DNA from: Candidatus Enterousia intestinigallinarum
Lineage (GTDB): Bacteria > Pseudomonadota > Alphaproteobacteria > Rs-D84
Direction: 5' to 3'
Length of the DNA: 64,000 nt
Assembly (NCBI GenBank): GCA_018716885.1
Contig: DVJI01000013.1
Span: 10,794 to 74,793 of the forward strand
The position numbers and the translations under genes were made by a program. Position 1 is the stretch's first letter, and each line of letters starts with the position of its first letter. Shown one piece after another: positions 253 through 63,518 of this stretch. The notes under the pieces were generated by a model. The model did no database searches. It was not told where the DNA came from and saw nothing but the letters and a program-made list of their open reading frames with translations.

Positions 253-278
253 AATCCCGCGTCCGCGGGATTTTTTAT
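253..278 (+). terminator. Rho-independent terminator after plsC
   Basis: aaaatcccgcg-tcc-gcgggatttttt: a GC stem followed by a T-run. Confidence 0.6.
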
Positions 279-640
279 TCATAATAACACAGTACAGATG
301 CTGCCGACGATAAATCATATTCGAATTCCCCCGTTTCATCGGCATATTTCATACCTTTGCTAACACCAATATAACAGGATGCCCTAGTACTTGTCCCGCC
401 AGCAGACGATACCGCCAATGGTTCACCAGTGGCGACAACTGTTATCCCAGAATCAGGACACTTTGAACAATAACTCCGTCTTGGCAAAACCGTTCCATCT
501 ACCAAATAAAAATATCCTGAATTACAACTGGTATAATCACGATAATATTCCTGGCATACAGAAGGTGGCCGCACAATACTTATGGAATATGCCGAACTTG
601 TCCCAAGTATCCCAATCAGTAAAACCAGTAATCTTTTCAT
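275..640 (-). CDS. Small secreted Cys-rich protein, family member 1
   Basis: Signal peptide MKRLLVLLIGILGTSSAYS. RBS ggggga upstream. Motifs CNSGYFY, CSKCP, SCYI, and C-terminal CYYE. Confidence 0.55.
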   Translation of the reverse strand: MKRLLVLLIGILGTSSAYSISIVRPPSVCQEYYRDYTSCNSGYFYLVDGTVLPRRSYCSKCPDSGITVVATGEPLAVSSAGGTSTRASCYIGVSKGMKYADETGEFEYDLSSAASVLCYYE

Positions 641-657
641 TTTATTCTTCCCCCATA

Positions 658-1020
658 TTAGTTACCAGAAACCTGACGACACATAGTACACATAGCCGAT
701 GTTCCAGACGTTGTTGAACGCCGTATATAGCACTCCCCCGTATTTTCCGTCGGGGCACAAGACGAATAATATTGGTTATATTCGCCACGCTCATCAGATT
801 CTGCTGCCGCTGTACGTGAACAAGTTTGTACACCACTGGTGTTGGTTGTTAAACTCCAGCCATCTGGACACGACAAAATTGTTCCTGTATATCCGGCCTC
901 GCAACAATATCCACTGAAACAACTGCCCAGACATTGGGACAAATCATTACATATCTCTGCATACGATATATACGGCCACCCAGAAACCAAGCCCAACAAA
1001 AATAAAAACCTTATTTTCAT
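658..1020 (-). CDS. Small secreted Cys-rich protein, family member 2 (divergent)
   Basis: Signal peptide MKIRFLFLLGLVSGWPYISYA. RBS agggg. Motifs CEAGYTG, SCPDG, GECYI. In tandem with member 1. Confidence 0.5.
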   Translation of the reverse strand: MKIRFLFLLGLVSGWPYISYAEICNDLSQCLGSCFSGYCCEAGYTGTILSCPDGWSLTTNTSGVQTCSRTAAAESDERGEYNQYYSSCAPTENTGECYIRRSTTSGTSAMCTMCRQVSGN

Positions 1021-1081
1021 AATCTTTACCCCTATTTCTATGCCGAATGCAATCGGTCGATAAAAAACGCAACAAATAGTG

Positions 1082-1111
1082 TTGACGCAGTGGTGAATTT
1101 TGGGGTAAAAT
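1082..1111 (+). promoter_or_regulatory. Sigma70-like promoter (TTGACG-N17-TAAAAT)
   Basis: -35 ttgacg at 1082-1087, 17-nt spacer, -10 gtaaaat. Lies immediately upstream of the conserved 93-nt cassette. Confidence 0.45.
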
Positions 1112-1123
1112 AAAATTAAATAA

Positions 1124-1216
1124 ATGCCGAAAACAAACCACCGATTAAAATCGGTGTTTTTATTTTTGAAAAAATCCCGAATTTCTGCATTTTTTTACTC
1201 TCCATTTTTGCCGAAT
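1124..1216 (+). repeat. Conserved 93-nt 5' cassette, copy A (identical to 8584..8676)
   Basis: Exact 93-nt identity to the copy at 8584. Contains hairpin caccgatt-aaa-atcggtg followed by tttttattttt. Confidence 0.9.
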
Positions 1217-1657
1217 CCAATCGGTGGATTTCTAACACTTCTGACACCAAAGGCAAATGCGGCGGCTATCCAATGTTATATGTGCCAACAAATAGTCGGC
1301 GCAAACTGGACAGTTGACGCATCTTGTACTGGAACTTCGTGCACGAATTGCAAAACCACCACAACCACCTTGAACGGTGTTATAACCACAAGAACCGCCA
1401 CAATGATTTCAAATTGTCCAACAGGTTTAACTGGTACAATCACGTGTAGTTGTAGACGCACATATTCATATAAATGCGCGGCCGGGTATTATGGACAGCC
1501 CAAATCTACTTTGCCGGGCCAATGCACAGAATGCCCAGGAAATGGAACATCAGCCGTTGGCAGTACCAGCATAACATCCTGCTATTTACCCAGTGGCACC
1601 AGTTGTTCAGACACATCTGGTACTTGCACATATACAAGTAATTGTTATTACAGTTAA
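1124..1657 (+). CDS. Small secreted Cys-rich protein, family member 3
   Basis: ORF-track ATG at 1124. Alternative TTG start at 1208 (MPNPIGGFLTLL...). Motifs CAAGYYG, CTECPGNG, ITSCYL, C-terminal NCYYS. Confidence 0.55.
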   Translation: MPKTNHRLKSVFLFLKKSRISAFFYSPFLPNPIGGFLTLLTPKANAAAIQCYMCQQIVGANWTVDASCTGTSCTNCKTTTTTLNGVITTRTATMISNCPTGLTGTITCSCRRTYSYKCAAGYYGQPKSTLPGQCTECPGNGTSAVGSTSITSCYLPSGTSCSDTSGTCTYTSNCYYS

Positions 1658-4934: not shown

Positions 4935-5312
4935 TTATCTGCCCCAGTTCAAAATCACATTTTCACAGCCAATCAATCCCAATCCGGCCGACGACAAGAA
5001 GAACTGTAACACTATACCGATACCGAATAACAAAACGAATCCAACCAGCATTCCGGTTCCTTTCTTTTGCAGGTCATCCATTTTAACTTCGCCCTTGGAT
5101 ATATAACCCCACGCCCATCCAGCGATAATGAACGCCGCACCAACAAACGCCAGGGTACGCAAAATCTGAAATACCCCGTACATTTGACCAATCAGATCAC
5201 ACAACCCGGAATTATTTACCCCACCAACACCGGCCGGCGCCGCCATTGCCGCAGACGCACCCGTTAAAACAACGATTCCGGCGAATCCCAGTTTTTTTAA
5301 CAAATTCTTCAT
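4935..5312 (-). CDS. Small membrane protein, TrbC/VirB2 pilin-like
   Basis: Start MKNLLKK. Signal-like N-terminus ending AMAAPAG, then two hydrophobic helices separated by KGEVKMDDLQKKG. Confidence 0.35.
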   Translation of the reverse strand: MKNLLKKLGFAGIVVLTGASAAMAAPAGVGGVNNSGLCDLIGQMYGVFQILRTLAFVGAAFIIAGWAWGYISKGEVKMDDLQKKGTGMLVGFVLLFGIGIVLQFFLSSAGLGLIGCENVILNWGR

Positions 5313-5428: not shown

Positions 5429-5818
5429 TTACATAGCAGGAACGATAATATATCTGCGTTTCAGAACCGGCTGTGCCGCATTACAAGAACTGCAGGAAAC
5501 CTGTTCCACCTTGGCATCACAAGAATTGCACGGAACTTCTTGGGCGGCCGGAACCAGAATCTGGCGATCGTGACGCGGCGCCTGGCCAAAGTTATCAATA
5601 GCATACAAATCTTCGCAACGGGTATTGCGGTACACAATCTTTTTGCCGTTATCAATACCGCTTACATAGCGCGAGAAATTACGACCATATTCACCAGCAT
5701 AATAGATGCAATCCTGACCATCTTGAGTGTATCTGACGCCACCCTTGTAATAATCATAATATGCGCCACAACCCGCCAGGGACGTCAGCGCGATTACAGA
5801 AACCAGAACTTTTTTCAT
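5429..5818 (-). CDS. Lipoprotein, hypothetical
   Basis: Lipobox LAGC. Cys-rich C-terminus. Confidence 0.5.
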   Translation of the reverse strand: MKKVLVSVIALTSLAGCGAYYDYYKGGVRYTQDGQDCIYYAGEYGRNFSRYVSGIDNGKKIVYRNTRCEDLYAIDNFGQAPRHDRQILVPAAQEVPCNSCDAKVEQVSCSSCNAAQPVLKRRYIIVPAM

Positions 5819-8532: not shown

Positions 8533-8561
8533 TTGCAATAATACAGAAAATTACATATAAT
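8533..8561 (+). promoter_or_regulatory. Sigma70-like promoter (TTGCAA-N17-TATAAT)
   Basis: Near-consensus hexamers with 17-nt spacing, about 20 nt upstream of the conserved cassette. Confidence 0.55.
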
Positions 8562-8583
8562 TAAATAGCATAAGAAAATATAT

Positions 8584-8676
8584 ATGCCGAAAACAAACCA
8601 CCGATTAAAATCGGTGTTTTTATTTTTGAAAAAATCCCGAATTTCTGCATTTTTTTACTCTCCATTTTTGCCGAAA
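8584..8676 (+). repeat. Conserved 93-nt 5' cassette, copy B
   Basis: 100% identical to 1124..1216. Confidence 0.9.
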
Positions 8677-9267
8677 AAAATTGGTCAATTCATATCAGCG
8701 ATAATAATTGCCACAACAATCGCAACGCCCGCTATGGCGTTCAAAGATTACAAATGCGGCTGTGGTTCACACTCTGATTTATATAATCGCCCGACCTGCT
8801 ATGCACCGCCAGATTATTTAACAGAATACTGTATAGTAAGTAAAACAAACGATACATTCACATACCGTGTACCAGACGGTATCAACGCCAAAGCGTGCAG
8901 TTTATGCTGGTGCTACGGATATACCGACAGCTGGCGTAGCGGTACCAATGGCGCCCTTGTCCGTACCGTATATACAGCCAAAGACACAAGCGCCACCCAA
9001 TGCGACTATTCATATGAAGACGAAGCCGCCTGTAATTCTGGATATTATGGATTACACGAGCCAGATTTCATGGTATACGCATGCGAGGAATGCCCATGGC
9101 TAGAAGATAAATACGGCACAATGCTGCACGGTTGGACAGAATACGCGAACACAAACACCGATATTACAGATTGCTATATAAGAAAAGAAGATACAGCCAC
9201 CGGTGTATGGTTTGAAGATGACACGGGTCAATACGCGATAACCGATGATTGTTATTATTCACTGTAA
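8584..9267 (+). CDS. Small secreted Cys-rich protein, family member 4
   Basis: ORF-track ATG at 8584. Alternative TTG start at 8668 gives signal peptide MPKKIGQFISAIIIATTIATPAMA. Motifs CNSGYYG, CEECP, ITDCYI, C-terminal DCYYSL. Confidence 0.6.
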   Translation: MPKTNHRLKSVFLFLKKSRISAFFYSPFLPKKIGQFISAIIIATTIATPAMAFKDYKCGCGSHSDLYNRPTCYAPPDYLTEYCIVSKTNDTFTYRVPDGINAKACSLCWCYGYTDSWRSGTNGALVRTVYTAKDTSATQCDYSYEDEAACNSGYYGLHEPDFMVYACEECPWLEDKYGTMLHGWTEYANTNTDITDCYIRKEDTATGVWFEDDTGQYAITDDCYYSL

Positions 9268-21084: not shown

Positions 21085-22566
21085 TTATTGGATACCGACG
21101 CGGAACTCATCGCCCCAGCCGGCCACTACCTGGCCGCCTATGGTGCATTGTATGTCTTCAAACCCGTTTTCTACCTGGTTCTTTTTTACTACATTACTGG
21201 TTATCAGACCACCGGCCGTACCCAATACAACCCCAGCAATGGAATCAGATAACAGACGCGATGTGTTAAAGTTGCCTTCTTCATTACGCCACACCGTCAG
21301 CTTTAACCCAGACGCTATATCATCCAGTTTTGATACTGCGCTTTCTATACGTTCCCGCGCCACTGCCTGTTGGTCTGTTGTTACAGTTGTTGTACTAGAT
21401 GCGCTGCCACCACTGGTTGTTGCATCGACACAGGCGGTACCTTCGGGATTAAATGTTTTACCAACCTCCATACAATAACACTGACCCGTTGTATAATTCC
21501 AGTTTGCACCAGTTATCAGCAAACATTTCTGAATTGCCGGATTCATTGCACAAACACTGCCGTTCCAAGAATACTGCTGATTGGTGCAACGACACTGTTT
21601 ATTCACGTCATCCCAATACGCGCCCGATGCGATACTGGCCTGCGATGTGCATTTTTGTTGCAATGCGGCCGCATCGGTCAAATCACATCTGTCGCCATTG
21701 CGTACATAATTTACATCATCCAAACATACACAGACATTATTTTCCACACGCAGATTTTTTGCACTGTCGCAAGCACACGCGCCGCCCGTCCACACTCCGC
21801 CGGAATTTTCACAGGCCGCCTTGCGTTGCTGGTTCAGGCGATTATTTTCCTCCTCGCGACGTCTGCGGTTTTCTTCATCTATAACAGATTGCTTTTTATT
21901 GCACTGCTTAGCCGTGGCATCAAATTCATAATCGCTGCTGATACATTCACAGGCCCCGCCACCGGAAACCAAACGCAGATTTTTTGCACTGTCACAAGTA
22001 CACGCGCTGCCCGTCCACGCTCCGCCGGAATCGACACAACGCTGCTCGCGATTATCTGCTATACATTCTGTTTTGGCGGCATTCGGCATATAACCAGAAT
22101 TGCATTTTACATATATACAGGATGCCCGACCAATAAAGGCCTCCAAATCACCCAAACTAAATGAAGAAGTCGCGACACCGTCAATACGGTATGTTTTCTT
22201 TGCATTAATTAAACTTATACCACCAAGACCACTGCCCGATTGTAATTCCGAATCTTTACAAAAATGTCCCGGCTCATAATTTACAAATTTATTTGTGAAC
22301 CCGGTTGAACATTGGTACAAACCAACTACATCCCCAACCCCGTCAAGATACGGGACAACTTCATCATCACTGCAGGAATTTGGCCCTGGCCCGCAAAACC
22401 AACACTGATTACCCCCAATATCAGCGGTAAGCCAAGCATTAGGATCGAAGAAACTTGTATCACCACAACTTAACAAAGTGCATTTTGCATCCGCATTATG
22501 TGGCAGAACCGCAAATCCGCACAATATCACTACGAACAACAATAATTTTTTCATATTCTCCCCCAT
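21085..22566 (-). CDS. Large secreted Cys-rich repeat protein with a C-terminal hydrophobic anchor
   Basis: Signal peptide MKKLLLFVVILCGFAVLPHNADA. A CNSGY motif. Two near-identical CENSGGVWTGGACACDSAKNLRV repeats. 37 Cys. Confidence 0.6.
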   Translation of the reverse strand: MGENMKKLLLFVVILCGFAVLPHNADAKCTLLSCGDTSFFDPNAWLTADIGGNQCWFCGPGPNSCSDDEVVPYLDGVGDVVGLYQCSTGFTNKFVNYEPGHFCKDSELQSGSGLGGISLINAKKTYRIDGVATSSFSLGDLEAFIGRASCIYVKCNSGYMPNAAKTECIADNREQRCVDSGGAWTGSACTCDSAKNLRLVSGGGACECISSDYEFDATAKQCNKKQSVIDEENRRRREEENNRLNQQRKAACENSGGVWTGGACACDSAKNLRVENNVCVCLDDVNYVRNGDRCDLTDAAALQQKCTSQASIASGAYWDDVNKQCRCTNQQYSWNGSVCAMNPAIQKCLLITGANWNYTTGQCYCMEVGKTFNPEGTACVDATTSGGSASSTTTVTTDQQAVARERIESAVSKLDDIASGLKLTVWRNEEGNFNTSRLLSDSIAGVVLGTAGGLITSNVVKKNQVENGFEDIQCTIGGQVVAGWGDEFRVGIQ

Positions 22567-22702
22567 TTATGCCGAAAATAAAGGTTGGTTTATTTTGGCA
22601 CCATAAACTCACATTTATTAGTTGTATTTTATCATATTTTCTGCGTAATTCCAATATTGAATTTATATCATATAAAAAAGCGCCGCGTTCGCGGCATAAC
22701 TT

Positions 22703-27455: not shown

Positions 27456-27977
27456 TTATTCGGTATAATAACACTTTGGATCATATACAAAAGAACCAGT
27501 TGAATCAGATCCTGATGCAATATAACAATCTGTTATTTTTGTACTGCCCGCAGTGGACATTCCGCCGTCTGGACACCTTGTGCAGTTTGCACTGGTTGGC
27601 ACAGTGATACTTGTAGTCAGATTCACACCATAATACCCCATAGTACATCGTACTTGATATCGTGGTGAACACTCACACGTTAAACGATTTTGAGAATAAC
27701 TGGAAATCTTATACTGCCACCCTGTCCCGCCAACACGCCAAATATTTGACACTGTTGGGCACGGATCACAATCGGGGTCATCAATATCACCCCCGCCAGG
27801 GTCAGGCGTTGGACATCCCGCTTGTTCACAGGTTTCTGTTGACAACCGGCAACAAGGGGCCGAACCAGCCGTCACAGGACATTGAATAGAATATATTCCC
27901 GAACAAGTTCGCCCAACGGCATCGGCAACAAACGCGCACGCAACTGCTGCGCTGACAATAAAACAGCTACATTTCAT
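27456..27977 (-). CDS. Small secreted Cys-rich protein, family member 5
   Basis: Signal peptide MKCSCFIVSAAVACAFVADA. Motifs CTMGYYG, CTRCPDGG, ITDCYI, C-terminal KCYYTE. Confidence 0.6.
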   Translation of the reverse strand: MKCSCFIVSAAVACAFVADAVGRTCSGIYSIQCPVTAGSAPCCRLSTETCEQAGCPTPDPGGGDIDDPDCDPCPTVSNIWRVGGTGWQYKISSYSQNRLTCECSPRYQVRCTMGYYGVNLTTSITVPTSANCTRCPDGGMSTAGSTKITDCYIASGSDSTGSFVYDPKCYYTE

Positions 27978-28000
27978 TTTCAATTCCCTTTTGTTTTTGT

Positions 28001-28030
28001 TAAACAAAAAACCGCCACGGAATTGGCGGT
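28001..28030 (-). terminator. Intrinsic terminator on the minus strand
   Basis: Minus strand reads ccgccaattccgtggcgg + ttttttgtttt. Lies about 35 nt upstream of the member-5 start codon. Confidence 0.5.
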
Positions 28031-28291
28031 CGGGGATTGAAAAATCATATTTAGGAATGACCCCGCGATTTTTATGGTTTCCCACTGTTGTATAATCGCG
28101 AACCCCCGACCGGTTAAACAGTCGGGCGATAAAACATACGGCGCAAACCCGCGCCGACGCTTTGTCAGTCGGATTACAATGCGATAACCGCATTGCCTAA
28201 ATACAGGATTTTTCAGGTCCCGAACCCAAATCCCTTTGGATTCAATATTCAGTATATTTTAACGTTCCAATAAAAACAAGACATTTAATCA
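28031..28291 (-). ncRNA. Candidate small RNA (unclassified)
   Basis: 260-nt structured, non-coding stretch bounded by two intrinsic terminators. No ORF and no RBS. Confidence 0.2.
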
Positions 28292-28337: not shown

Positions 28338-29966
28338 CTAGTTCAATGGTGCGCCCCAATGTTGCTGTATGGTGCGTTCCGCATCCATCGGGCTGACCAA
28401 GACCTGTGGTGTCAGGATAACAACCAACACATCGCGCGTCGCCGTTGTTTCACGCGACCCAGACAGTGCCATAAAGTCCGGATCCCCTAACCCATAGCGA
28501 GTGTCATTATTTTCCTGCTTTTCAAATCCGGATACAACCAACATCTGGCCGGATTCCATAATAACCTCTTGCATAAAGCTACGTTCTTCTACCTCTGGCA
28601 GCTGCAGGGTTACTTCGCCAATCGTCTGTGTTGACATACGCAACAGTTCACGAACCGACATTCTGAACAGCAATAATATCTTGCCATTTTCCAAAACGTT
28701 CGGCAGTAACTGCATTGAAAATCCGGTTTCCAAATCGTCCTGGTCAACGGTACTGGATTCAACGGTCGTAAAGTTGCGCGATTCGAAACGTTTGATATAT
28801 CCAGTTGTACGTGTATTGTTCACCGGCGCGACACGATTGTTTCGCGTTGTAACGCCAACATTAGTAACCAAAGACACCTTGCCCTGCTTGGCCAACGCCT
28901 GAATCAAGGCATCTGTACCCGCCAATGCGGACAATGAACCGTTTTGAATCTGATCCTGGGTGTATGCACCGGCAACTGTTTCGGTACCCTCCAGATGGGT
29001 CGCACCAGTCGCCGCAGACACCGCATTGGACAAAACGGCAATGTTCATAGAACTGGCCTCGGTACTGGTCAGATTGTTTTTCGGATTTGCAACGATATTC
29101 AACCCGGACGCAGAATTTATCGCCGCCGCCAGATTTAACCCAAACGCCGAATCGTTGGATATAGATACCTGCAGAACCTTTACATCAATGGTAACCAACT
29201 GTGACAGACGTTTGTTTTGGCGATCAATATAATCGGACACACGTGCCAATGTTGACGGTGGCGCCGTAACAGTTATTGTGCCCAAACTGCGCGACACAGT
29301 AAAGTTCGCGTTATCAACATCACCAATGATTGTTTCTATGGCATTTTCAATTTCATCCCATTCCTTCAGCGTGGATTCCAACGACACAGTATTTCCGTCA
29401 TCGGTTTCAACAGCAGTCTGGTATGAAACATCTGTTCCCAACGCATATAAAGTGAAGGTTCTTGTTTCCGTTTCATAGAAAACAATAGAAGATTTATCAT
29501 AATACCACAATAAATCCAAGTCCGTCGCCACCTGGGACAACAGGCCTGACAAACTGCCAGTATATGCAACGTTTATAGTTTTCTTTAATTTTTCAGAATT
29601 TATCTGGTTATCAATTTTGACCGGTATGCCAGTTATTGAAGTGATATCATTGGCCAGCATACTTAAACTGACGGGTTCATTCAACAAAATCGTAATTCCC
29701 GTACTGGTTTCAAACTGCGACGGCAGATTGTTACGATGTTCCAATAATGTTGACGATGCCCCCAACCAGACACCTTCGGACATAGAAACGGTATCGCCAC
29801 TGGCCACCTTGGCCGGCGGATTTTTAGACATTTCGAACGCATCGTATGCGTTTATAAAGTCCTGGTCAACAGATGCCGCAACTTTGGCGGATTCCTTGGT
29901 GGCGCATCCCGCAACCATTGCGCCCAAAACGCCGCACATAACGAAAAATTTTATTGGGTTGGTCAT
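28338..29966 (-). CDS. Secretin-family outer-membrane lipoprotein (type IVb pilus / PilN-BfpB-like)
   Basis: Lipobox MVAGC. C-terminal secretin domain (VTIDVKVLQVS..., GFEKQENNDTRYGLGDP..., LVVILTPQVL). Confidence 0.6.
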   Translation of the reverse strand: MTNPIKFFVMCGVLGAMVAGCATKESAKVAASVDQDFINAYDAFEMSKNPPAKVASGDTVSMSEGVWLGASSTLLEHRNNLPSQFETSTGITILLNEPVSLSMLANDITSITGIPVKIDNQINSEKLKKTINVAYTGSLSGLLSQVATDLDLLWYYDKSSIVFYETETRTFTLYALGTDVSYQTAVETDDGNTVSLESTLKEWDEIENAIETIIGDVDNANFTVSRSLGTITVTAPPSTLARVSDYIDRQNKRLSQLVTIDVKVLQVSISNDSAFGLNLAAAINSASGLNIVANPKNNLTSTEASSMNIAVLSNAVSAATGATHLEGTETVAGAYTQDQIQNGSLSALAGTDALIQALAKQGKVSLVTNVGVTTRNNRVAPVNNTRTTGYIKRFESRNFTTVESSTVDQDDLETGFSMQLLPNVLENGKILLLFRMSVRELLRMSTQTIGEVTLQLPEVEERSFMQEVIMESGQMLVVSGFEKQENNDTRYGLGDPDFMALSGSRETTATRDVLVVILTPQVLVSPMDAERTIQQHWGAPLN

Positions 29967-29997
29967 ATCTTTATTTTCTCCTACGGCAAACTATGAC

Positions 29998-30906
29998 TTA
30001 TTCTTCTGTTGTGGAAATCACCAAAACGCGATTTCCCTTATAGAATTTAGCATACGGTATCGGTGTTGCGCGTGCAAAGTTTCGAACCAGCGCAGACGCC
30101 ACATCGACAAAGCGACCCTTGAACACGGCACTGGCCTCAATCGGATATTCACGCGATGTCGCCCAAACCAAATCCCAGCCCTCTTTATTGCACCAATCTT
30201 GCAACACTTCACGCAGTGTCTGACCATTGGCAACGACCCAGGAACGCACCTGGTCGGTTAAAGTAACTGGTGCTTCGGCATCGGCAGAAATATCAACAGC
30301 GATTTCCGCATCCAACGCTTCTGTTGCTTCGTTCGCGGCGGCAATTTCTTCCTCACTCATACCAAATTTAGCCATAAATGCTTCATATCCGTCGCGATAC
30401 TGAGTGCAATCCTGGCGACTGCTGCGCGACACTGACAAAACGGTGCCCCCGTCATCTTCCAACATTTCGCGCGACAGCAACGGCATTTCCGCCCCACTTT
30501 TGCACGGATCATCAAATCCGGCCGGCACCTGGGTCCCGTGCAGCATATTCGCCCCACCAGACCAACCGTTAAAATCACCATCCGTCGTACGTCCCAAATT
30601 GAAATTATTTTCAACAACTAAATCCGCACCGATTTTTGAAACTATACGAATATTATCCTTGTTCTTATTACCTGAACAGGCCCCGTCTTCACACGCGACG
30701 GTCACGTCCGCATCTGACCCCGGAATCGGCCACACAGGCACCTGCTGAGTATTATCAACCTGAACGGTTTGCGTTTCGGTTGCAACAGGTTCAGTGGAAT
30801 AATAAACCTCTGACGTGACGACCTGGGGCAGATTTGTATTTTCTGCTGCGAAACAGTATCCGGCCGCGGTTGCAAACATTGCGACAATAAGAATCTTGCG
30901 GAACAT
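29998..30906 (-). CDS. Periplasmic protein with a C-terminal TcpQ/PilL-like domain
   Basis: Start MFRKILIVAMFATAAGYCFA. The C-terminus WCNKEGWDLVW...KGNRVLVIST resembles the TcpQ domain found next to T4b secretins. Confidence 0.35.
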   Translation of the reverse strand: MFRKILIVAMFATAAGYCFAAENTNLPQVVTSEVYYSTEPVATETQTVQVDNTQQVPVWPIPGSDADVTVACEDGACSGNKNKDNIRIVSKIGADLVVENNFNLGRTTDGDFNGWSGGANMLHGTQVPAGFDDPCKSGAEMPLLSREMLEDDGGTVLSVSRSSRQDCTQYRDGYEAFMAKFGMSEEEIAAANEATEALDAEIAVDISADAEAPVTLTDQVRSWVVANGQTLREVLQDWCNKEGWDLVWATSREYPIEASAVFKGRFVDVASALVRNFARATPIPYAKFYKGNRVLVISTTEE

Positions 30907-31093
30907 AAAAACTTCCTTTCCTGAACGTTTTACATATTTATTACATATTATTATAACAATTTGACCGAATCTGTGCAAGATTAAAACGCACTGAAAATAA
31001 CGGATAAATACACACGCAAAGATAAAATCGCACGAATCGGCAAAAGATGCTATACTAAAACCCGATAAAGGCAAAATACCGCGGGGGACACAT

Positions 31094-31639
31094 ATGCAGG
31101 ACACATTGATAATCGCCGCAATAGGCATCGTTTTTTTGGTACAGATTGCAATACTGTATTTTATATACACAACAAACACACGTGTTCGTGATGTGACAAA
31201 AACACTGACGCATCAATATAACCTTATTGTAAAAATTCAGTCCACTTTGAAAAACAAGTCCGCAACAAACGCGGTTGCCGAAAACGCAGAAATGATTTAC
31301 CAGGATCTATTGCAAAACCTGATACCAATTATGGCGGCGATTGACGTGATGCCACGCGCGACATCGGAACATCCGTTGTGGCGGGCATTGGGCGGAATTA
31401 TGGACGAATACGCAAAAAATCCGTTTGCATTGGAAAAATTACGCCGCTGCATCAAACTGGACGCCGAAGTTGCCCGCAGCGTCGATAATTATATGAACCG
31501 CGCAGACGCGTTTTTGAACCATTTGACAACAACCGATCCGGATGGAATATTATCCGCAACGTTTACAGACGGCCTGTTGGGACAATCACTGACTTTTTTT
31601 GCCCAGGCAAAACAACTGGCCGCCCAGACAACAGAATAA
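31094..31639 (+). CDS. Hypothetical membrane-anchored protein
   Basis: Single N-terminal TM helix. Confidence 0.4.
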   Translation: MQDTLIIAAIGIVFLVQIAILYFIYTTNTRVRDVTKTLTHQYNLIVKIQSTLKNKSATNAVAENAEMIYQDLLQNLIPIMAAIDVMPRATSEHPLWRALGGIMDEYAKNPFALEKLRRCIKLDAEVARSVDNYMNRADAFLNHLTTTDPDGILSATFTDGLLGQSLTFFAQAKQLAAQTTE

Positions 31640-41228: not shown

Positions 41229-42803
41229 TTAAAACTTGATTCCGACACCGACGCCAACCTTGTACCCGATTGCGTCGTTGTCATAAATAATCCCCAGTGA
41301 TATGTTTCCACCCGCCCTGTCAGCAATGGATGTTACACCCAAACGCAACGATGTATCCAAACGACCAGACACATCGCCACTAATACGAATCCCATAGTTA
41401 TATTCTATGTCATAACCATCGGCGATATTAAATATAAGGTCCGCGCCTGCACCAGTAAAAATTTCCAAATCGGACGCCGAAAGTATTTTTGCATAATCCG
41501 CACCAACACGAACAAATGGCGCCACTGTAAAATTTTCTAGCGGTGCAAAACCAATTCCAAAATCGGCAACCGCATACATAGAAACACCGTTTGGATTTAA
41601 TACTATTTCACCATTGTCAAACACCGCCCCAACATCAAACTTTGAAATCGTTGCACCGGCAACACCACGTGCAAAAATCGAATTATAAAAATACGCTATA
41701 TGCACGTTTCCGCCATATAGCGCAATTTTATATTCGTCCAAATCGTTTGTAAAATCCATTGTCACGGCATATACTGACGCTGCGATTTTCAGATTTCTAG
41801 ATATATCAAACGACACATCCGCGCCCACACCAAACGCATTGAAATCATCAGAATATAAAAAGATTGGTGCAACACCGACACCGTCTGATAACGTGGCAAC
41901 TTCTATCATTTCGAACATATTAAATGTTCGTACTGCGTCCATCATACGAATCGGATTCATACGCACCGTGCGCGACATAATAGATTCCAATTCGGCCATT
42001 GTTGTGGCGCGGTCTAATGCGGCTATCAGTTTATCGTCAGGATTTTCCACACGAATACTATTCAAAAACATCCCGGCGTCATTTTGTAAAATCTTGAAAT
42101 AATCGGTATCACGAACCACATCAACATACAGGGCATTATCTGATATGCGTGCCGCGACGCGATACAATGGATTGGTATTTTCGGAATATATGCTAATTGT
42201 GCCGTCCCCATAAACATTTGACATAATCGGCCCATTGCCAAACACGGATAAATCATCTGCATACAGTGTGACATTTCCGCGTAATTCTATATCCGGCGCA
42301 TCAGCGGCAGGAAACATACGCGCCCCACCATCATCCAAATCCAGTACGGAATTATACAGAACTATTCTGTCCGCATCGCCAGACATATTGCGTAATCCAA
42401 ACCACGATACGCGATTGGCACTTTCAACAATAATTTCGTATTTTCCCGCAACACCCAATGGATTCAAATCGGCATTATTGCGCACCAGCTGTATAACAGA
42501 ACTGTTATCCCCAGTTGCGTCAAACATCGCATTTATGTTCCCGGTGTTTTGAACATATACATCACATCCGTCACACACGTTCACGCGCCCGTTAATTGTA
42601 CCAGCATTTGTCAGTACCAACGAATTTATGACATTTACCTGATTTACATCAACGACAACCGAATCGGCAATCACCGTGTTATTTTCAATATTCCACACAT
42701 CGCCACGTATATCACTGCCAATATAGTCAACAGCGGCGTCCGCCACATCAGGCACCACCGACACAACTGCACATATAAAAAGAAAAATCCATCCCTTTCC
42801 CAT
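41229..42803 (-). CDS. Autotransporter-like outer-membrane protein
   Basis: Signal peptide MGKGWIFLFICAVVSVVPDVADA. Asn/Val-rich passenger region. C-terminal beta-barrel ending ...GVGVGIKF. Confidence 0.55.
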   Translation of the reverse strand: MGKGWIFLFICAVVSVVPDVADAAVDYIGSDIRGDVWNIENNTVIADSVVVDVNQVNVINSLVLTNAGTINGRVNVCDGCDVYVQNTGNINAMFDATGDNSSVIQLVRNNADLNPLGVAGKYEIIVESANRVSWFGLRNMSGDADRIVLYNSVLDLDDGGARMFPAADAPDIELRGNVTLYADDLSVFGNGPIMSNVYGDGTISIYSENTNPLYRVAARISDNALYVDVVRDTDYFKILQNDAGMFLNSIRVENPDDKLIAALDRATTMAELESIMSRTVRMNPIRMMDAVRTFNMFEMIEVATLSDGVGVAPIFLYSDDFNAFGVGADVSFDISRNLKIAASVYAVTMDFTNDLDEYKIALYGGNVHIAYFYNSIFARGVAGATISKFDVGAVFDNGEIVLNPNGVSMYAVADFGIGFAPLENFTVAPFVRVGADYAKILSASDLEIFTGAGADLIFNIADGYDIEYNYGIRISGDVSGRLDTSLRLGVTSIADRAGGNISLGIIYDNDAIGYKVGVGVGIKF

Positions 42804-42910
42804 AGGATGAGAGATTAGCACATAAGATTTTTTTCTTAAAGTTTTTTATAAAAATCACACCCCAGGCGTCCCCGGGGTGTAATTATATACATCTTGTGAT
42901 GCCGGACAAC

Positions 42911-45824: not shown

Positions 45825-46436
45825 TTAGAACATAAATCTGATACCAATATCACCACCAAAATTATGCAGGCCTGAATTGATATCGACATAGTTATAACGT
45901 GCCGCAATATCAACCGCAAAGCGTTCCATATCAAATGTCACGCCCAATGCCCCCATCGCAGAGAAACGCGTTTTGCTTTCGCTGTGATGACCAACATTTG
46001 GAATTTCGCGTTTAACATCAGTGAACGCGACACCGGCGCCCAGCCCAAAGAACGGACGAACAATGTGGTATCCGCCAAATTCCCAATAGTTGTTCCACAA
46101 CAACGTCTGCATCTTGGTTTCGACATTTACATCGCCGATATTACCAAAATTGGCGCTGTCCTTGGCCTTGCTGTATATGGACCATTCGATTTCAGAACGT
46201 ACTGTATCGCACACTTCCAAACCTAATGCCGCACGCCCCTGGAATATGGTATCCGACATTGTTTCTTTATGGTCGTTATAGCTATAGTTCAGATTTGAAT
46301 AGCTGGCGCCGCCACGCAATCCAATATACGGATCTAATCCGAAAAATTGCCACGTGCTTTCGTTCGGATTACGTCCCGCCGCGAACGCCGGACACGCAAT
46401 CAGCACGGCCAGTGTTGATATGACTATTTTTTTCAT
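45825..46436 (-). CDS. Outer-membrane beta-barrel protein (OmpA-like / OmpW-like barrel)
   Basis: Signal peptide MKKIVISTLAVLIACPAFA. Alternating hydrophobic strands. C-terminal ...GIRFMF. Confidence 0.55.
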   Translation of the reverse strand: MKKIVISTLAVLIACPAFAAGRNPNESTWQFFGLDPYIGLRGGASYSNLNYSYNDHKETMSDTIFQGRAALGLEVCDTVRSEIEWSIYSKAKDSANFGNIGDVNVETKMQTLLWNNYWEFGGYHIVRPFFGLGAGVAFTDVKREIPNVGHHSESKTRFSAMGALGVTFDMERFAVDIAARYNYVDINSGLHNFGGDIGIRFMF

Positions 46437-46672
46437 TTGCTCTCTCCTTTGTAGGTTTGTTGTATAAAAGTTTTTTCGTGTCAACACTGTAATTCTATCA
46501 AAGCAAATCATAAGTTTGCATAGGTATGGCTGCCTATTATTCGGCACACGTATTTTTATGCGATTCGCAGGCGCCACTACAAAAAATGATAAATACCCTT
46601 GCATTTGGCTAAAAAAGGACTATAATCGCCTAGGTCAAAAGACAAAAGTGATGATAAAATCACAACGGACCC

Positions 46673-46748
46673 GGGTGCGTAGCTCAGTTGGTAGAGCAAC
46701 TGACTCTTAATCAGTGGGTCCAGGGTTCGAGTCCCTGCGCGCCCACCA
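46673..46748 (+). tRNA. tRNA-Lys (CTT)
   Basis: GGGTGCG/TAGCTCAGTTGGTAGAGC/ACTGACTCTTAATCAGT/.../GGTTCGAGTCC/CGCGCCCACCA. Anticodon CTT. Confidence 0.85.
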
Positions 46749-46786
46749 CAAACATAAACCGCAACGCGGTTTTTTATTTTTGTATT
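46749..46786 (+). terminator. Intrinsic terminator after tRNA-Lys
   Basis: aaaccgcaacgcggttttttattttt. Confidence 0.6.
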
Positions 46787-46902: not shown

Positions 46903-46960
46903 AGGGAGTCCCTGCGCGCCCACCACAAACATAAACCGCAACGCGGTTTTTTTATTTTTA
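46903..46960 (+). repeat. Direct repeat of the tRNA-Lys 3' end plus terminator (att-like scar)
   Basis: gagtccctgcgcgcccaccacaaacataaaccgcaacgcggtttttt is repeated about 174 nt downstream of the intact copy. A degenerate T-arm fragment (ccagggttcgac) lies between the copies. Confidence 0.7.
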
Positions 46961-57463: not shown

Positions 57464-59404
57464 CTATTTTTTATTATCATCACTTGCGTTATTTTTGCCC
57501 ACACCGTCAAAAACATTATTTATTAAAACATCACCAACCGCACCACCGGCAACACCCGCACCACCAACAATAGCACCTGTTTTTAATTGCGATGATGTAT
57601 CGGACTTCTGCGCCGCCCATTCTGCCGCATCCGCGCCAGTCGGATCAGACAACGCGCGTGACAATGACGTATATGCACCGTCGGTTATACCAGTCGCCGC
57701 ATTGTCGTACAAACCAGACGTCGCCGCATCCAGAATAACTTCGGATTCTATACCTGGGGTCATACCAAGGGCCTCTTTGCGCGTTTTCAAATCTGCCGCT
57801 AATGTCGTATATTCGTTATATATTGGCAATAATACATTTGCGCCGGGCAGTTGTATATTTGTTTCGCCACCGCTGATTGTCATACCATGGCCATAGTCGC
57901 ATTTGAACGTTGCAAGATACGCCGCCATATCACGTTCGGCGTCCGCATCGGCATTTTGTTCGGCCAGTGCGGATGCTACCTGCATCCCGCCAATACCACC
58001 GGCACCGATTGCCGCCGCACCCAGCATACGATTCGCTAATGATTGTTCGCGCGCTTTTGCCTCTTCATACGCTTTCTTAGCTTGTCGCCAATTTTCTAAT
58101 TGTGTATCGTACCGAACTAAGTTATCCAAAATATCAAATATTTCTGCGTCAGTTGTATCTGCCGTAACAGTGCCGATTGCATCTATTACTTGATTACCCA
58201 AATTATCAATTTGCTGTTTCTCTTTTTCCAGCAGTTCCCCCGTATCGTCTGCGACAGCAACATCTGGCGCACCAGACGCATCAACAAAACTTGCAACTGG
58301 CAATAAATTTTCCCGCGAACCATCGGCGTCAATTACACCCGTTGGATTCACAGATTGTACACGATTATCTGGCATAGATGCCGGCACATCAATTTTATCT
58401 ATTTTTGCAGCATCAGATACAGAACCGTTTTTCCAAACTTTTCGACCACTTATAATATCCCCCAAAACATCCTGTGCTGGTGATGTTTTTTGCATTTCTT
58501 TCAATGCAGCCATCCAATTTGATGATGCAGAATACAAAGTTTCATTTTCACCAAATTCGTTCGCATCAAAAGAAGTCCTTGACCTTGACACAACCCCATA
58601 TACCTGATTGTCATTTGTCCACGCGGCACCACCAGAATTTCCCTGTGACAGTTGACAATTTCCGTTATAAGACACAGCAAGTGTTTGTTTTGTCCTGTCC
58701 ACAACACTAATGTTACCAACCCCTGTCAGTTCACAAGCTGTGTCCGCCTTTAACCTAAATCTTTTTTTCCCGGACGAAACATCCCAATCTCTTAATTCTT
58801 TACCATCCAGCAATGTTGTAAATTCATCATAGAATTGTTCTAAATAAGTTTCTGCGCTTTCATAAGACGCCACATTGTGTTCTGACAATTTTTTATGTAT
58901 TTTTTGTATTTCATCTGGCGCCAATATCCTAAGCCAACCAAATCCAGCGATACTAACAGGTACAGGAAACCTTGCATCATTTTTTTTCAAAGAATCTGGA
59001 AAAGAATCAAAATAGTCCCGGCTAAAAAATCGACCATCTGTTACGCGCAACAACGCCCAGTCATCAGACAAAGAGGTTCCATATTTTTCTAAAACAACCC
59101 AAGTTTCTCTGCCATCGTATGTCTCTATTGGTATTTTTTCACCAACCATTTGATTGCCGTCATATCCTGTACTATAAATCAAACAATGGCGTGCCGTTAA
59201 AATTATATCTGGCGCAACATATTGCCCAGCACAAGTCACAGAAACCCAATCAGCCGAGAAAGTATTTCCCTTTATCAATACAATTTTGTTATACGGCGCC
59301 GCAGCCCAATCAACATATTCACGTTCGTCGTATGAACCAATATATGCACGTGCCGCGCACGGCACAAATAACAATGCAATAAAAAGAGTCCTGTAAAGAA
59401 ACAA
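57464..59404 (-). CDS. Secreted trypsin-like (S1) serine protease with a 400-aa C-terminal extension
   Basis: Signal peptide. Catalytic triad TARHC, DWALL, GNSGGA. Coiled-coil and Gly-rich C-terminus. Confidence 0.6.
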   Translation of the reverse strand: MFLYRTLFIALLFVPCAARAYIGSYDEREYVDWAAAPYNKIVLIKGNTFSADWVSVTCAGQYVAPDIILTARHCLIYSTGYDGNQMVGEKIPIETYDGRETWVVLEKYGTSLSDDWALLRVTDGRFFSRDYFDSFPDSLKKNDARFPVPVSIAGFGWLRILAPDEIQKIHKKLSEHNVASYESAETYLEQFYDEFTTLLDGKELRDWDVSSGKKRFRLKADTACELTGVGNISVVDRTKQTLAVSYNGNCQLSQGNSGGAAWTNDNQVYGVVSRSRTSFDANEFGENETLYSASSNWMAALKEMQKTSPAQDVLGDIISGRKVWKNGSVSDAAKIDKIDVPASMPDNRVQSVNPTGVIDADGSRENLLPVASFVDASGAPDVAVADDTGELLEKEKQQIDNLGNQVIDAIGTVTADTTDAEIFDILDNLVRYDTQLENWRQAKKAYEEAKAREQSLANRMLGAAAIGAGGIGGMQVASALAEQNADADAERDMAAYLATFKCDYGHGMTISGGETNIQLPGANVLLPIYNEYTTLAADLKTRKEALGMTPGIESEVILDAATSGLYDNAATGITDGAYTSLSRALSDPTGADAAEWAAQKSDTSSQLKTGAIVGGAGVAGGAVGDVLINNVFDGVGKNNASDDNKK

Positions 59405-62850: not shown

Positions 62851-63357
62851 TTAATTAATTTCAATCTCTTCTTCAACCTCTTCTTCAAAAGAATCAGAAT
62901 CATCGTAACGGCAATCTTCTGAAAAAACATAACTGCCAGCACTGTCCGCACATATGGCATCAACGCCATAATAACACCCTGTTATACCTGCGCCTTCGGT
63001 ACTGTGCGGACCACGAAGACACCCATTCAACGTCGGACAATCCAAACACTGGGCCAATATTCCCACCATTCCATTGTGATATTGCCCATCTTCACAAACC
63101 AACTCTTCTTCAATGCATTCACAGGTGTCTGGGTCCACTGTACCAAAACATATTTTTGCTGGGTCACATACACATTCAAGTGCATCTGCATCCCAAACCT
63201 TGCCATCGCCACAGTCTGGTTCAACCTCTCCCATACAATAATCGGGGTCATATTCACATTGCAAACAACTGGCACCTGAATATTTCACACATTTATAGCA
63301 ATCTGGGCATACCGTATCCACCGCCACAGATGCACCCGTTGAAAAACCAATCAACAT
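62851..63357 (-). CDS. Cys-rich acidic protein (related to the Cys-rich family)
   Basis: 26 Cys. GITGCYYG motif. C-terminal poly-Glu tail. Weak signal peptide. Confidence 0.4.
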   Translation of the reverse strand: MLIGFSTGASVAVDTVCPDCYKCVKYSGASCLQCEYDPDYCMGEVEPDCGDGKVWDADALECVCDPAKICFGTVDPDTCECIEEELVCEDGQYHNGMVGILAQCLDCPTLNGCLRGPHSTEGAGITGCYYGVDAICADSAGSYVFSEDCRYDDSDSFEEEVEEEIEIN

Positions 63358-63518
63358 AATAAACCCACCGATTTATTTCGGCACAACAGAAAGGAATAAA
63401 AATGCAGTTTTTCAGTGTTTTCAAAACAATAAAAACACCGATATTAATCGGTGGTTTATTTTCGGCATATCTTTTGTGTACATTATATCAATCTGTGCGC
63501 CCCACCCGCAAGACTTTT

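What the first reader, a model, noticed from the sequence alone, without database searches (positions are those of the whole stretch)
275..1657. Clustered multigene family of small secreted Cys-rich proteins with a eukaryote-like furin/ephrin-receptor/VSP-type Cys spacing
At least five small ORFs (275..640-, 658..1020-, 1124..1657+, 8584..9267+, 27456..27977-) carry signal peptides and share an ordered motif set: CxxGY[YF]G, 5-12 residues, CxxCP, then [ST]ITxCY[IL], then a C-terminal CYY[SET]. The large 493-aa protein at 21085..22566 and the acidic protein at 62851..63357 share partial motifs (CNSGY, GCYYG). The CxxGYYG...CxxCPxG...S spacing matches laminin-EGF, furin-like and ephrin-receptor-like Cys-rich repeats, which are typical of eukaryotic surface proteins. 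Three members are clustered at 0.3-1.7 kb and the others are scattered. This looks like a lineage-specific secreted or surface family, possibly an effector or adhesin family or host mimicry.
Basis: partly seen in the sequence, partly recalled or inferred. Interest (0 to 1): 0.8.

Follow-up and report, generated by a model that had tools for sequence, protein, structure and literature searches.

The report
Capped ephrin-receptor-like secreted protein family
A reduced-genome gut bacterium (Candidatus Enterousia, order Rs-D84) carries many genes for small, exported, disulfide-rich proteins built on a cysteine-rich unit otherwise typical of eukaryotic surface receptors; the genes vary between strains and probably serve contact with other cells, but their function is untested.

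Summary
The family is real. A profile built only from foreign homologues recovers five window ORFs (275-640-, 1124-1657+, 8584-9267+, 27456-27977-, 62851-63357-). It does not recover 658-1020 or the 493-aa protein at 21085-22566.

The shared part is a ~68-residue module that ends within 3 residues of the C-terminus in 85 of 93 ORFs. Its first two thirds is one ephrin-receptor-like unit (PF07699 type). Profile-profile comparison with bona fide units gives 96.5% probability, and relatives P0044 and P0051 pass Pfam's threshold. The last third is a family-specific cap ending CYY[ST][NE].

No window protein itself hits any Pfam model. Fold matches are weak, but all are TNFR, Eph or class-C GPCR cysteine-rich domains.

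658-1020 belongs to a separate 10-Cys family. A gene of that family sits directly upstream of a minimal family member in 9 other genome assemblies, forming a conserved gene pair.

The family is confined to uncultured gut Alphaproteobacteria with genomes under 1 Mb. It comprises about 2,000 clusters at 50% identity and shows strain-level deletions and segment swaps. Many members share a conserved promoter and leader cassette.

The function (variable binding or adhesion proteins) is inferred, not shown.

The parts
275..640 (-). Family member ('B' type), 121 aa. Signal peptide followed by the capped ephrin-like module (module about 278-559), with insertions. It is the downstream gene of the A-B pair.
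   Evidence: External profile E = 4e-11. The module ends at the C-terminus. 17-nt gap to 658-1020 on the same strand.
658..1020 (-). Partner gene ('A' family), 120 aa, signal peptide plus a 10-Cys domain (CC..G.TGT..CP.GW...C.R..SGSD.TGYYTQ.YGTC...). It is not a detectable member of the main family.
   Evidence: Not hit by the B profiles. It has its own family of 26 clusters. An A gene lies directly upstream of a minimal B gene in 12 loci from 9 assemblies and in L088/L089. 100% identical to IAD02_04325 of Ca. Enterousia intestinigallinarum.
1082..1207 (+). Sigma-70-like promoter (TTGACG-18-TAAAAT, 1082-1111) plus the type-1 leader. The leader holds the R1 box, the hairpin CACCGATTAAAATCGGTG with a T-run, the box AATCCCGAATTTCTGCAT, and the R2 box overlapping the TTG start at 1208.
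1208..1657 (+). Family member with a Cys-rich N-terminal extension. Listed as ORF 1124-1657; probable start is TTG at 1208. Capped module at 1442-1654.
   Evidence: External profile E = 3e-17. AlphaFold2 model of the module has pLDDT 85.5.
8578..8667 (+). Type-1 leader, second copy (89% identical to 1110-1237).
8668..9267 (+). Family member. Listed as ORF 8584-9267; probable start is TTG at 8668, which gives MPKKIGQFISAIIIATTIATPAMA|FKDY. Capped module about 8998-9264.
   Evidence: External profile E = 1e-13. In the strain variant P0004 the C-terminal 50 aa are identical while the N-terminal part has diverged.
27456..27977 (-). Family member, 173 aa. Capped module about 27459-27680. It lies downstream of the secretin and TcpQ-domain genes but is separated from them by a terminator and a structured region.
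27990..28240 (-). Structured upstream region ('type-2 leader') ending in an intrinsic-terminator-like hairpin. It includes a near-threshold Rfam sRNA-Xcc1 match at 28020-28111.
   Evidence: MFE z-score -4.95. RF02221 scores 49.2 bits against a threshold of 53, E = 2.5e-8, over the full model length. A related tail lies upstream of a paralogue in L090.
62851..63357 (-). Family member, 168 aa, with an acidic C-terminal tail after the capped module (module about 62902-63129).
   Evidence: External profile E = 4e-5. Strain variants carry a 117-nt in-frame deletion (L077) or a replaced 3' end (L075).
63358..63476 (-). Type-1 leader, third copy (77-78% identical to the other two).
21085..22566 (-). 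493-aa Cys-rich secreted protein. It is not a family member, but it is preceded at about 22567-22605 by a short variant of the leader (R-box inverted repeat TGCCAAAATAAACCAACCTTTATTTTCGGCA).

Best explanation
Shown. These are genuine genes of a very large family restricted to uncultured, reduced-genome gut Alphaproteobacteria. The window comes from Candidatus Enterousia intestinigallinarum (order Rs-D84) or a very close relative.

Each protein has an N-terminal Sec-type signal peptide and an invariant C-terminal module of about 68 residues. The module contains one ephrin-receptor-like (TNFR-like) cysteine-rich unit: C-x9-C-xx-GYY ... CxxCP ... ITxC. This is fused to a family-specific hairpin cap: Y[IL]PxGT..SDSTGxYxY...C-Y-Y-[ST]-[NE]-COOH. 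The module has six conserved Cys.

Upstream of the module there is either nothing (mature proteins of about 65 aa), or a variable Cys-rich extension, or further ephrin-like units.

Inferred. After Sec export and oxidative folding, the proteins act outside the cytoplasm as compact, protease-resistant binding modules. These would be adhesin-like or ligand-like proteins that a partner-dependent bacterium uses to contact other cells or the host.
- The constant capped module would provide a common docking or assembly function that needs a free C-terminus.
- The variable N-terminal parts, the many paralogues and the strain-level indels would provide diversity.
- A conserved gene pair (10-Cys 'A' protein followed by a minimal member) is probably the ancestral core and may form a complex.
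- Many members share a promoter and leader cassette containing a terminator-like hairpin, which suggests co-ordinated and possibly conditional expression.
For: Family and module:
- The external profile recovers five window ORFs.
- The core alignment has 7 invariant and 7 near-invariant columns.
- The module ends 0-3 residues from the C-terminus in 85 of 93 ORFs. In the wider search, 120 of 144 representatives have it at the C-terminus.
- The last Cys is followed by exactly 4 residues in 61 of 81 distinct sequences.

Ephrin-like nature. AlphaFold2 model pLDDT 85.5. All structural neighbours are TNFR, Eph, ELAPOR1 or class-C GPCR cysteine-rich domains.

Export and disulfides:
- Signal peptides are visible in the sequences.
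- Extra Cys appear in pairs, for example GTSCSDTSGTC in 1124-1657 and in P0027.

Lineage:
- 69 loci in about 30 assemblies, nearly all gut Alphaproteobacteria MAGs, with up to 7 loci per assembly. Complete chromosomes are 0.72-0.96 Mb.
- 2,049 clusters at 50% identity with E <= 1e-3. This count includes some long multi-repeat proteins that match only the ephrin-like part of the profile.
- No relatives in viral contigs.
- Rs-D84 lacks biosynthesis, respiration and standard transporters, and a partner-dependent lifestyle has been proposed for it (PMC12306168).

Variability:
- 117-nt in-frame deletion and 3'-end replacement against 95-99% identical flanks.
- 629-bp deletion of the A-B pair in other strains.
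- A/B hybrid proteins P0034 and P0037.
- N-terminal divergence with an identical C-terminus in P0004.

A-B pairing.

Leader cassette.
Against: - No window member reaches any Pfam or NCBIfam model.
- No membrane anchor, sorting signal or dedicated secretion system was identified.
- The only nearby secretin is separated from its family neighbour by a terminator.
- No Dsb-type oxidoreductase gene was seen among the window ORFs that were scanned.
- The signal peptides of 1124-1657 and 62851-63357 are weak, and some leader copies carry an in-frame TAA after the presumed start.
- No binding target, localisation or expression data exist.
- The A-B pair is deleted in some strains, so at least that copy is dispensable.
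Confidence: 0.5

Rival explanations
1. Antigenic or phase-variable surface coat, analogous to Giardia VSPs or Mycoplasma variable lipoproteins. Many paralogues with a shared 5' cassette would be expressed alternately to evade host IgA, phages or proteases.
For: - VSP profile hits just below threshold (28.3 against 31.4 bits).
- Many scattered paralogues and strain-level indels.
- A conserved promoter, leader and first-codon cassette shared by otherwise different genes.
- T-runs within the leader.
Against: - No membrane anchor or lipobox, and the C-terminus is CYYSN rather than a transmembrane tail.
- Each gene has its own promoter.
- No inversion sites, recombinase or silent cassettes were seen.
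- T-run lengths were not shown to vary.
Confidence: 0.15
2. Secreted antimicrobial or toxic peptides. This would be a two-component A+B bacteriocin-like system, or defensin-like molecules, used against competitors or to lyse prey or partner cells.
For: - Small, Sec-exported, three-disulfide proteins.
- A conserved two-gene A-B operon.
- Presence/absence polymorphism between strains.
Against: - Mature minimal members are neutral to acidic and rich in Ser, Thr, Gly and Tyr. They are neither cationic nor amphipathic.
- No adjacent immunity, processing or ABC-export genes; the flanks are housekeeping genes.
- Most paralogues carry long, unrelated N-terminal extensions.
Confidence: 0.12
3. Periplasmic or envelope-resident proteins that never leave the cell. 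Examples would be structural stabilisers of the envelope or scavenging binding proteins that compensate for missing transporters.
For: - Only a Sec signal is evident and no outer-membrane translocation signal was found.
- Rs-D84 lacks standard uptake transporters.
- The window encodes envelope machinery: TolB, LolA, AsmA-like, TatC.
Against: - Housekeeping envelope components are not normally hypervariable, multi-copy or deleted between strains.
- Ephrin-like and TNFR-like units are otherwise found on extracellular proteins.
Confidence: 0.13
4. Convergent low-complexity Cys/Gly/Tyr motif with no homology to eukaryotic ephrin-receptor-like units.
For: - Window members have no Pfam hit.
- The PDB sequence search gives only E >= 0.028, and the top hits are sushi domains sharing 'CNxGYY'.
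- The units used were picked with a regular expression containing the same Cys motif, which biases that comparison.
Against: - Bridging proteins contain both threshold-passing PF07699 units and the family cap.
- The family profile retrieves proteins with 13-30 PF07699 repeats at E = 1e-35 to 1e-17, matching over about 40 positions.
- The reversed-sequence control gives 0.6%.
- The classes of fold neighbours are consistent with the homology.
Confidence: 0.1

Closest known systems
Ephrin_rec_like repeat proteins (Pfam PF07699; formerly GCC2_GCC3), as in Eph receptors, ELAPOR1 and ciliate or Giardia surface proteins
   Same: They share the Cys framework CxxG(Y/F)Y ... CxxCP ... (S/T)xxxC over about 35-40 residues. 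Profile-profile probability is 96.5%. Some relatives pass the Pfam threshold. Structural neighbours are of the same class.
   Different: - The window proteins have a single unit rather than tandem arrays.
- They are small (65-200 aa mature) and bacterial.
- They end in a family-specific cap (SDSTGxYxY...CYY[ST][NE]-COOH) that is absent from Pfam.
- They have no transmembrane or kinase parts.
- The window members themselves score below Pfam's reporting limit.
- PF07699 is described as having arisen in early eukaryotes, with only rare bacterial cases (PMC6993872).
Giardia variant-specific surface proteins (VSP, PF03302)
   Same: Cys-rich, CxxC- and GYY-containing extracellular proteins of a gut organism. 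Both form large, variable multigene families. Sub-threshold profile hits cover VSP positions about 254-347.
   Different: - Scores are below the gathering threshold.
- VSPs are 20-200 kDa with many repeats, a C-terminal transmembrane helix and a CRGKA tail (own knowledge). None of these is present here.
TNF-receptor-type cysteine-rich domains, and the class-C GPCR cysteine-rich domain (NCD3G)
Variable surface-protein gene families with conserved 5' cassettes (for example Mycoplasma vsp/vlp/vsa; own knowledge)
   Same: Paralogous genes that share a highly conserved promoter, 5' UTR and first codons, followed by divergent coding sequence.
   Different: Those are lipoproteins, and their phase variation works through inversions or homopolymer tracts. 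Neither a lipobox nor a switching mechanism was found here.

Membership tests
Ephrin_rec_like (Pfam PF07699) | Score at or above the curated gathering threshold (23.1 bits) against the PF07699 HMM | tested here: not met
   The seven window proteins gave no PF07699 hit at E <= 10. Among relatives, P0009 scores 23.0, P0044 34.2 and P0051 29.4 bits. 10 of 26 core sequences hit at E <= 10, the best at 6.3e-6.
Ephrin_rec_like (Pfam PF07699) | Cys framework (CxxGxY ... CxxCP ... C) alignable with bona fide units at the profile level | tested here: met
   hhalign of A4 against 57 units taken from proteins with 5-30 threshold-passing PF07699 repeats gives probability 96.5%, E = 8e-10 over 32 columns. 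The reversed control gives 0.6%. Caveat: the units were selected with a motif regular expression.
Ephrin_rec_like (Pfam PF07699) | TNFR-like disulfide-ladder fold | tested here: inconclusive
Ephrin_rec_like (Pfam PF07699) | Occurrence as tandem repeats in large extracellular proteins | tested here: not met
   Window members have one unit each. Some relatives have 2-5 units.
Giardia VSP (Pfam PF03302) | Score at or above the gathering threshold (31.4 bits) | tested here: not met
   The best relative scores 28.3 bits (P0009). Window proteins give no hit.
Giardia VSP (Pfam PF03302) | C-terminal transmembrane helix with a conserved cytoplasmic tail | tested here: not met
   The proteins end in CYY[ST][NE] 0-3 residues after the module, with no hydrophobic C-terminal segment.
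Furin-like / laminin-type EGF repeats | Significant match to Furin-like, Furin-like_2 or Laminin_EGF profiles | tested here: not met
   Furin-like_2 appears only at E = 0.025-0.18 in two relatives. No Laminin_EGF hit was found.
Rs-D84 capped ephrin-like family (uncharacterised; defined here) | Capped module (C-x9-CxxGYY ... CxxCP ... ITxCY[IL] ... SDSTGxYxY ... CYYxx) at the extreme C-terminus, detected by a profile that excludes window sequences | tested here: met
   Met for 275-640, 1124-1657, 8584-9267, 27456-27977 and 62851-63357. Not met for 658-1020 or 21085-22566.
Rs-D84 capped ephrin-like family (uncharacterised; defined here) | Export by the Sec pathway and formation of disulfide bonds | not testable with these tools
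   Signal peptides were judged by eye. No signal-peptide predictor, model coordinates or experimental data were available.

The most novel reading that the evidence does not exclude
Rs-D84 bacteria would have turned a eukaryote-type receptor module (ephrin-receptor/TNFR-like) into a hypervariable secretome of hundreds to thousands of variants. These variants would mimic or engage host or protist surface ligands. Their expression would be gated by a previously undescribed family-specific promoter and leader (attenuator or operator) cassette. The A-B pair would form the core heterodimeric adhesin that underlies an obligate cell-attached lifestyle of a widespread but uncultured member of the gut microbiota. 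A corollary is that the ephrin-receptor-like unit is not a eukaryotic invention, or that it was transferred to bacteria and then expanded massively there.
Probability: 0.2. Interest if true: 0.8.

Novelty: new variant of a known kind. Interest (0 to 1): 0.55.

Why it matters
Rs-D84 (Enterousia) is common in animal and human guts. It has genomes under 1 Mb with almost no biosynthesis or transport, and nobody knows what it lives on or attaches to.

A densely encoded family of exported proteins that varies between strains is the most obvious candidate for its interface with a partner. The window holds five members plus one partner gene in 64 kb.

The family also shows that the ephrin-receptor-like cysteine-rich unit, regarded as essentially eukaryotic, has a large bacterial radiation with its own C-terminal cap. 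This bears on the origin of the unit and on the direction of any horizontal transfer.

The shared leader cassettes give a handle on regulation in an uncultured lineage.

Tried and rejected
- Pfam and NCBIfam scans of the seven window proteins found nothing relevant. The NrfB-like, DUF5874 and IpaB hits are sub-threshold CxxC or composition noise.
- A PDB sequence search with the family profile gave only insignificant sushi, thyroglobulin and Eph hits.
- The 493-aa protein was rejected as a member.
- 658-1020 as a member. jackhmmer started from it eventually pulled in the main family. A clean A-only profile found no B member at E <= 10, and hhalign matched only 15 columns. I therefore treat it as a partner family that may be distantly related.
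- A secretin operon was considered for 27456-27977. A terminator and a 300-nt structured region separate the genes.
- Phage origin was checked: no relatives in viral contigs.
- Leader as a coding upstream ORF: the ATG and the reading frame are not conserved.
- Leader as a known RNA family: no Rfam family at gathering score.
- Leader structure. RNAalifold gives almost no consensus energy. The proximal hairpin shows no covariation in fixed columns. The long-range ACCGATT/AATCGGT complementarity shows modest covariation. A DNA inverted repeat would give the same signal.
- The afdb50 fold library was unavailable.
- The first genome scan, with the broad alignment, failed for lack of a conserved stretch.
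Full report
**Observation.** 21085-22566 and 62851-63357 are on the minus strand. Aligning the small proteins shows a shared C-terminal region with aligned Cys positions.

To avoid circularity, I built a profile from 18 foreign homologues only and searched all 887 six-frame ORFs of the window that are at least 40 aa long. It hit 1124-1657 (3e-17), 8584-9267 (1e-13), 275-640 (4e-11), 27456-27977 (6e-10) and 62851-63357 (4e-5). The next ORF scored E = 0.19. The family is therefore real, and the 'acidic protein' is a full member.

658-1020 and the 493-aa protein were not detected.

**Anatomy of the module.** A 26-sequence core alignment (A4) gives the pattern C1-x9-C2-xx-G-Y-Y-x(4-16)-C3-xx-C4-P-...-[IV]-T-x-C5-Y-[IL]-P-S-G-T-x-x-S-D-S-T-G-x-Y-x-Y-x-x-x-C6-Y-Y-[ST]-[NE].
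- Across the window and 92 fetched loci, the module ends 0-3 residues from the stop codon in 85 of 93 ORFs.
- The last Cys is followed by exactly four residues in 61 of 81 distinct sequences.
- Extra cysteines appear in pairs (GTSCSDTSGTC in 1124-1657 and P0027), as expected for disulfide-bonded extracytoplasmic proteins.
- Minimal members are signal peptide plus module only: 84-91 aa as precursor, with the mature protein starting at C1.
- Other members carry unrelated Cys-rich N-terminal extensions or additional CxxGYY...CxxCP units.

Signal peptides were assessed by eye. They are clear for 275-640, 658-1020, 27456-27977 and 8584-9267, the last when started at TTG 8668 (MPKKIGQFISAIIIATTIATPAMA|F). 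They are weak for 1124-1657 (TTG 1208) and 62851-63357.

**Relation to eukaryote-type repeats.** No window protein hits Pfam or NCBIfam. Four lines of evidence nevertheless link the family to the ephrin-receptor-like unit.
1. 10 of 26 core sequences hit Ephrin_rec_like (best 6e-6), 6 hit VSP and 4 hit TNFR_ELAPOR1_6th. All are below threshold. P0009 scores 23.0 against 23.1 bits for Ephrin_rec_like and 28.3 against 31.4 for VSP.
2. An exhaustive profile search of 1.84 billion representatives found 2,049 clusters at E <= 1e-3 and 405 at E <= 1e-10. Small proteins match the whole profile at their C-terminus; 120 of 144 top hits do so. Long proteins match only positions about 8-46 repeatedly. These long proteins carry 3-30 threshold-passing PF07699 repeats according to Pfam.
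3. P0044 (274 aa) and P0051 (437 aa) combine threshold-passing PF07699 units (34.2 and 29.4 bits) with the family cap.
4. hhalign of A4 against 57 bona fide units gives 96.5% probability, E = 8e-10, covering C2 to C5. The reversed control gives 0.6%. The units were chosen with a motif regular expression, which is a bias.

I conclude that the first two thirds of the module is one ephrin-receptor-like unit. The last 25 residues or so are a cap specific to this family. There is no support for laminin-EGF or furin repeats. VSP membership fails on both score and architecture.

**Organism and distribution.** The protein of 658-1020 is 100% identical to IAD02_04325 of the MAG Candidatus Enterousia intestinigallinarum (taxonomy).

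The window is the chromosomal origin region. It carries dnaA, dnaN, gyrB, tolB and other housekeeping genes, and the family genes are inserted singly between them.

A scan of GTDB species representatives returned 69 loci in about 30 assemblies. Almost all are labelled as uncultured gut Alphaproteobacteria, Rickettsiales or Enterousia, from deer, goat, sheep, rabbit and human. Up to 7 loci were found per assembly, which is a lower bound. Complete chromosomes are 0.72 and 0.96 Mb. A few records are labelled Bacteroides or Muribaculaceae; these are probably mislabelled bins, which I did not verify.

There are no relatives in viral contigs.

The only study of this lineage reports genomes under 1 Mb without TCA cycle, respiration, biosynthetic pathways or standard transporters. 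It proposes a partner-dependent lifestyle and does not mention this family (PMC12306168). PF07699 has been described as arising in early eukaryotes, with rare bacterial cases attributed to horizontal transfer (PMC6993872).

**The partner gene.** 658-1020 belongs to a distinct family ('A'; 10 conserved Cys; CC..G.TGT..CP.GW...C.R..SGSD.TGYYTQ.YGTC). I found 26 clusters of it.

In 12 loci from 9 assemblies, an A gene lies immediately upstream of a minimal B gene on the same strand. The same holds for a second pair in the window's own species (L088/L089) and for 658-1020 followed by 275-640 in the window.

A and B share only the SDxTGxY stretch (hhalign probability 14%). The A model is of low confidence (pLDDT 62.7) and has no structural neighbour.

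**Variability between strains.** Against flanks that are 95-99% identical:
- one strain has a 117-nt in-frame deletion in 62851-63357;
- another has the 3' end of that gene replaced;
- two metagenome strains lack window positions 299-927, which removes most of the A-B pair;
- hybrid proteins joining the A signal peptide to the B C-terminus exist (P0034, P0037);
- P0004 differs from 8584-9267 throughout the N-terminal part but is identical over the last 50 residues.

**Regulatory surroundings.** Three window members (1124, 8584, 63357) share a cassette of about 120 nt. It consists of:
- a sigma-70-like promoter (TTGACG-18-TAAAAT);
- an R1 box ([A/T]TGCCGAAAAYAAA);
- a hairpin CACCGATT-AAAA-AATCGGTG followed by a T-run;
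- a conserved box AATCCCnGATTTCTGCAT;
- an R2 box that usually contains the start codon (xTG CCG AAn ... = MPN/K...).

The cassette recurs upstream of family genes in 6 of the GTDB loci (2 further copies precede the membrane-protein gene described below), in 9 metagenome contigs and in the L088 pair.

The ATG at 1124 and 8584 belongs to R1. Neither that ATG nor its reading frame is conserved elsewhere, so it is not the gene start.

The 5' ACCGATT and the 3' AATCGGT, about 80 nt apart, co-vary modestly. Six cells show double changes, and the covariation score exceeds all 500 shuffles. The proximal hairpin shows no covariation in fixed columns. RNAalifold finds almost no consensus energy. An RNA helix and a pair of DNA half-sites are both compatible with this, and I could not decide between an attenuator and an operator.

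Two other upstream elements were seen.
- A short variant (R-box inverted repeat) precedes the 493-aa gene and the family gene in L082.
- 27456-27977 has a different, strongly structured upstream region (z = -4.95). It contains a full-length but sub-threshold match to Rfam sRNA-Xcc1 (49.2 against 53 bits) and ends in a terminator. A related tail precedes a paralogue in L090.

**Mechanism.**

Shown:
- the family is real, large and lineage-restricted;
- it has a signal peptide and a conserved six-Cys module;
- that module is derived from an ephrin-receptor-like unit and sits strictly at the C-terminus;
- the family varies between strains, includes a conserved A-B gene pair, and has shared leader cassettes.

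Inferred:
- The proteins are exported and folded oxidatively. They then work as stable binding modules that mediate contact with a partner or host.
- The constant capped module provides a common docking or assembly function.
- The N-terminal parts and the paralogue number provide diversity.

Rivals, with evidence and refuting tests given in the rival-explanations section, are:
- a phase-variable coat;
- two-component antimicrobial peptides;
- purely periplasmic envelope proteins;
- convergence rather than homology with ephrin-like units.

**Verdict.** The ephrin-receptor-like interpretation holds at the profile level, but not as formal Pfam membership of the window proteins. The function remains inferred.

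This is a new variant of a known kind of domain, found in a poorly understood gut lineage. Its cis-regulatory cassettes are themselves undescribed.

Noticed in passing
window 1082-1240 (+), 8550-8700 (+), 63350-63500 (-); also L022, L049, L055, L045, L058, L020, L078-L080, L083-L088: A conserved cassette (promoter, about 90-nt leader and the first codons) is shared by otherwise divergent family genes across species. It has two direct R boxes (TGCCGAAAA...), a terminator-like hairpin with a T-run, the box GATTTCTGCAT, and a long-range ACCGATT/AATCGGT complementarity with modest covariation. It matches no Rfam family. Whether it is an attenuator or an operator is unresolved.
   Followed up: partly
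window 27990-28240 (-), Rfam hit at 28020-28111 (-): A strongly structured 250-nt region (MFE z = -4.95) lies between the secretin gene and 27456-27977. It contains a full-length, just sub-threshold match to Rfam sRNA-Xcc1 (49.2 against 53 bits) and ends in an intrinsic-terminator-like hairpin. A related tail precedes a paralogue in L090 and was mistranslated as 'IPDRQFVGGFLF' at the start of P0194, P0197 and P0198.
   Followed up: partly
window 22567-22605 (-), upstream of 21085-22566: The 493-aa Cys-rich secreted protein is not a family member, but it is preceded by an inverted repeat of the R box (TGCCAAAATAAACCAACCTTTATTTTCGGCA) just before its ribosome-binding site. The same short variant occurs in L082. 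This suggests that the gene belongs to the same regulon.
   Followed up: partly
window 299-927, compared with L080 and L084: Two metagenome strains with 95-99% identical flanks carry a 629-bp deletion that removes most of the A-B gene pair. Hybrid A/B proteins (P0034, P0037) from other samples indicate recurrent recombination between the tandem genes.
   Followed up: partly
window 4935-5312 (-) and 5429-5818 (-): A small protein with a signal peptide and two hydrophobic segments (no Pfam hit) lies next to a Cys-containing lipoprotein. By eye it resembles a VirB2/TrbC-type pilin. Its homologues in L067 and L056 carry the type-1 leader, whereas the window copy does not.
   Followed up: partly
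window 28338-31179 (-): A secretin (PF00263) and a TcpQ-domain protein are adjacent. A strong terminator follows the secretin gene, so the downstream family gene is probably not co-transcribed with it. No other pilus or secretion genes were seen in the window.
   Followed up: partly
window 63367-63382 (-); L022, L049, L080: In several leader copies the R2 box reads GCCGAAATAAA, which places an in-frame TAA three codons after the presumed xTG start. In L022 and L080 this leaves no canonical start codon upstream of the signal-peptide-like segment. Either initiation occurs elsewhere or these copies are impaired.
   Followed up: no
window 41229-42821 (-), 45825-46604 (-), 57464-59404 (-): Other envelope or surface candidates in the window are a 530-aa protein with a weak autotransporter beta-domain hit, an outer-membrane beta-barrel protein, and a 646-aa trypsin-like protease.
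   Followed up: no
window 46729-46781 and 46906-46958 (+): A 53-nt direct repeat (96% identical, 177 nt apart) begins at the 3' end of tRNA-Lys (46673-46748) and contains a terminator-like hairpin. It could be a duplicated tRNA 3' end, such as the remnant of an integration site.
   Followed up: no
L047, L064, L072, L073 (CAVGNU01, labelled Bacteroides fragilis); L054 (OZ246409.1, labelled Muribaculaceae, 716 kb chromosome): Family loci occur in records whose organism labels are implausible for this family and for that genome size. The likely cause is mislabelled or contaminated bins.
   Followed up: no
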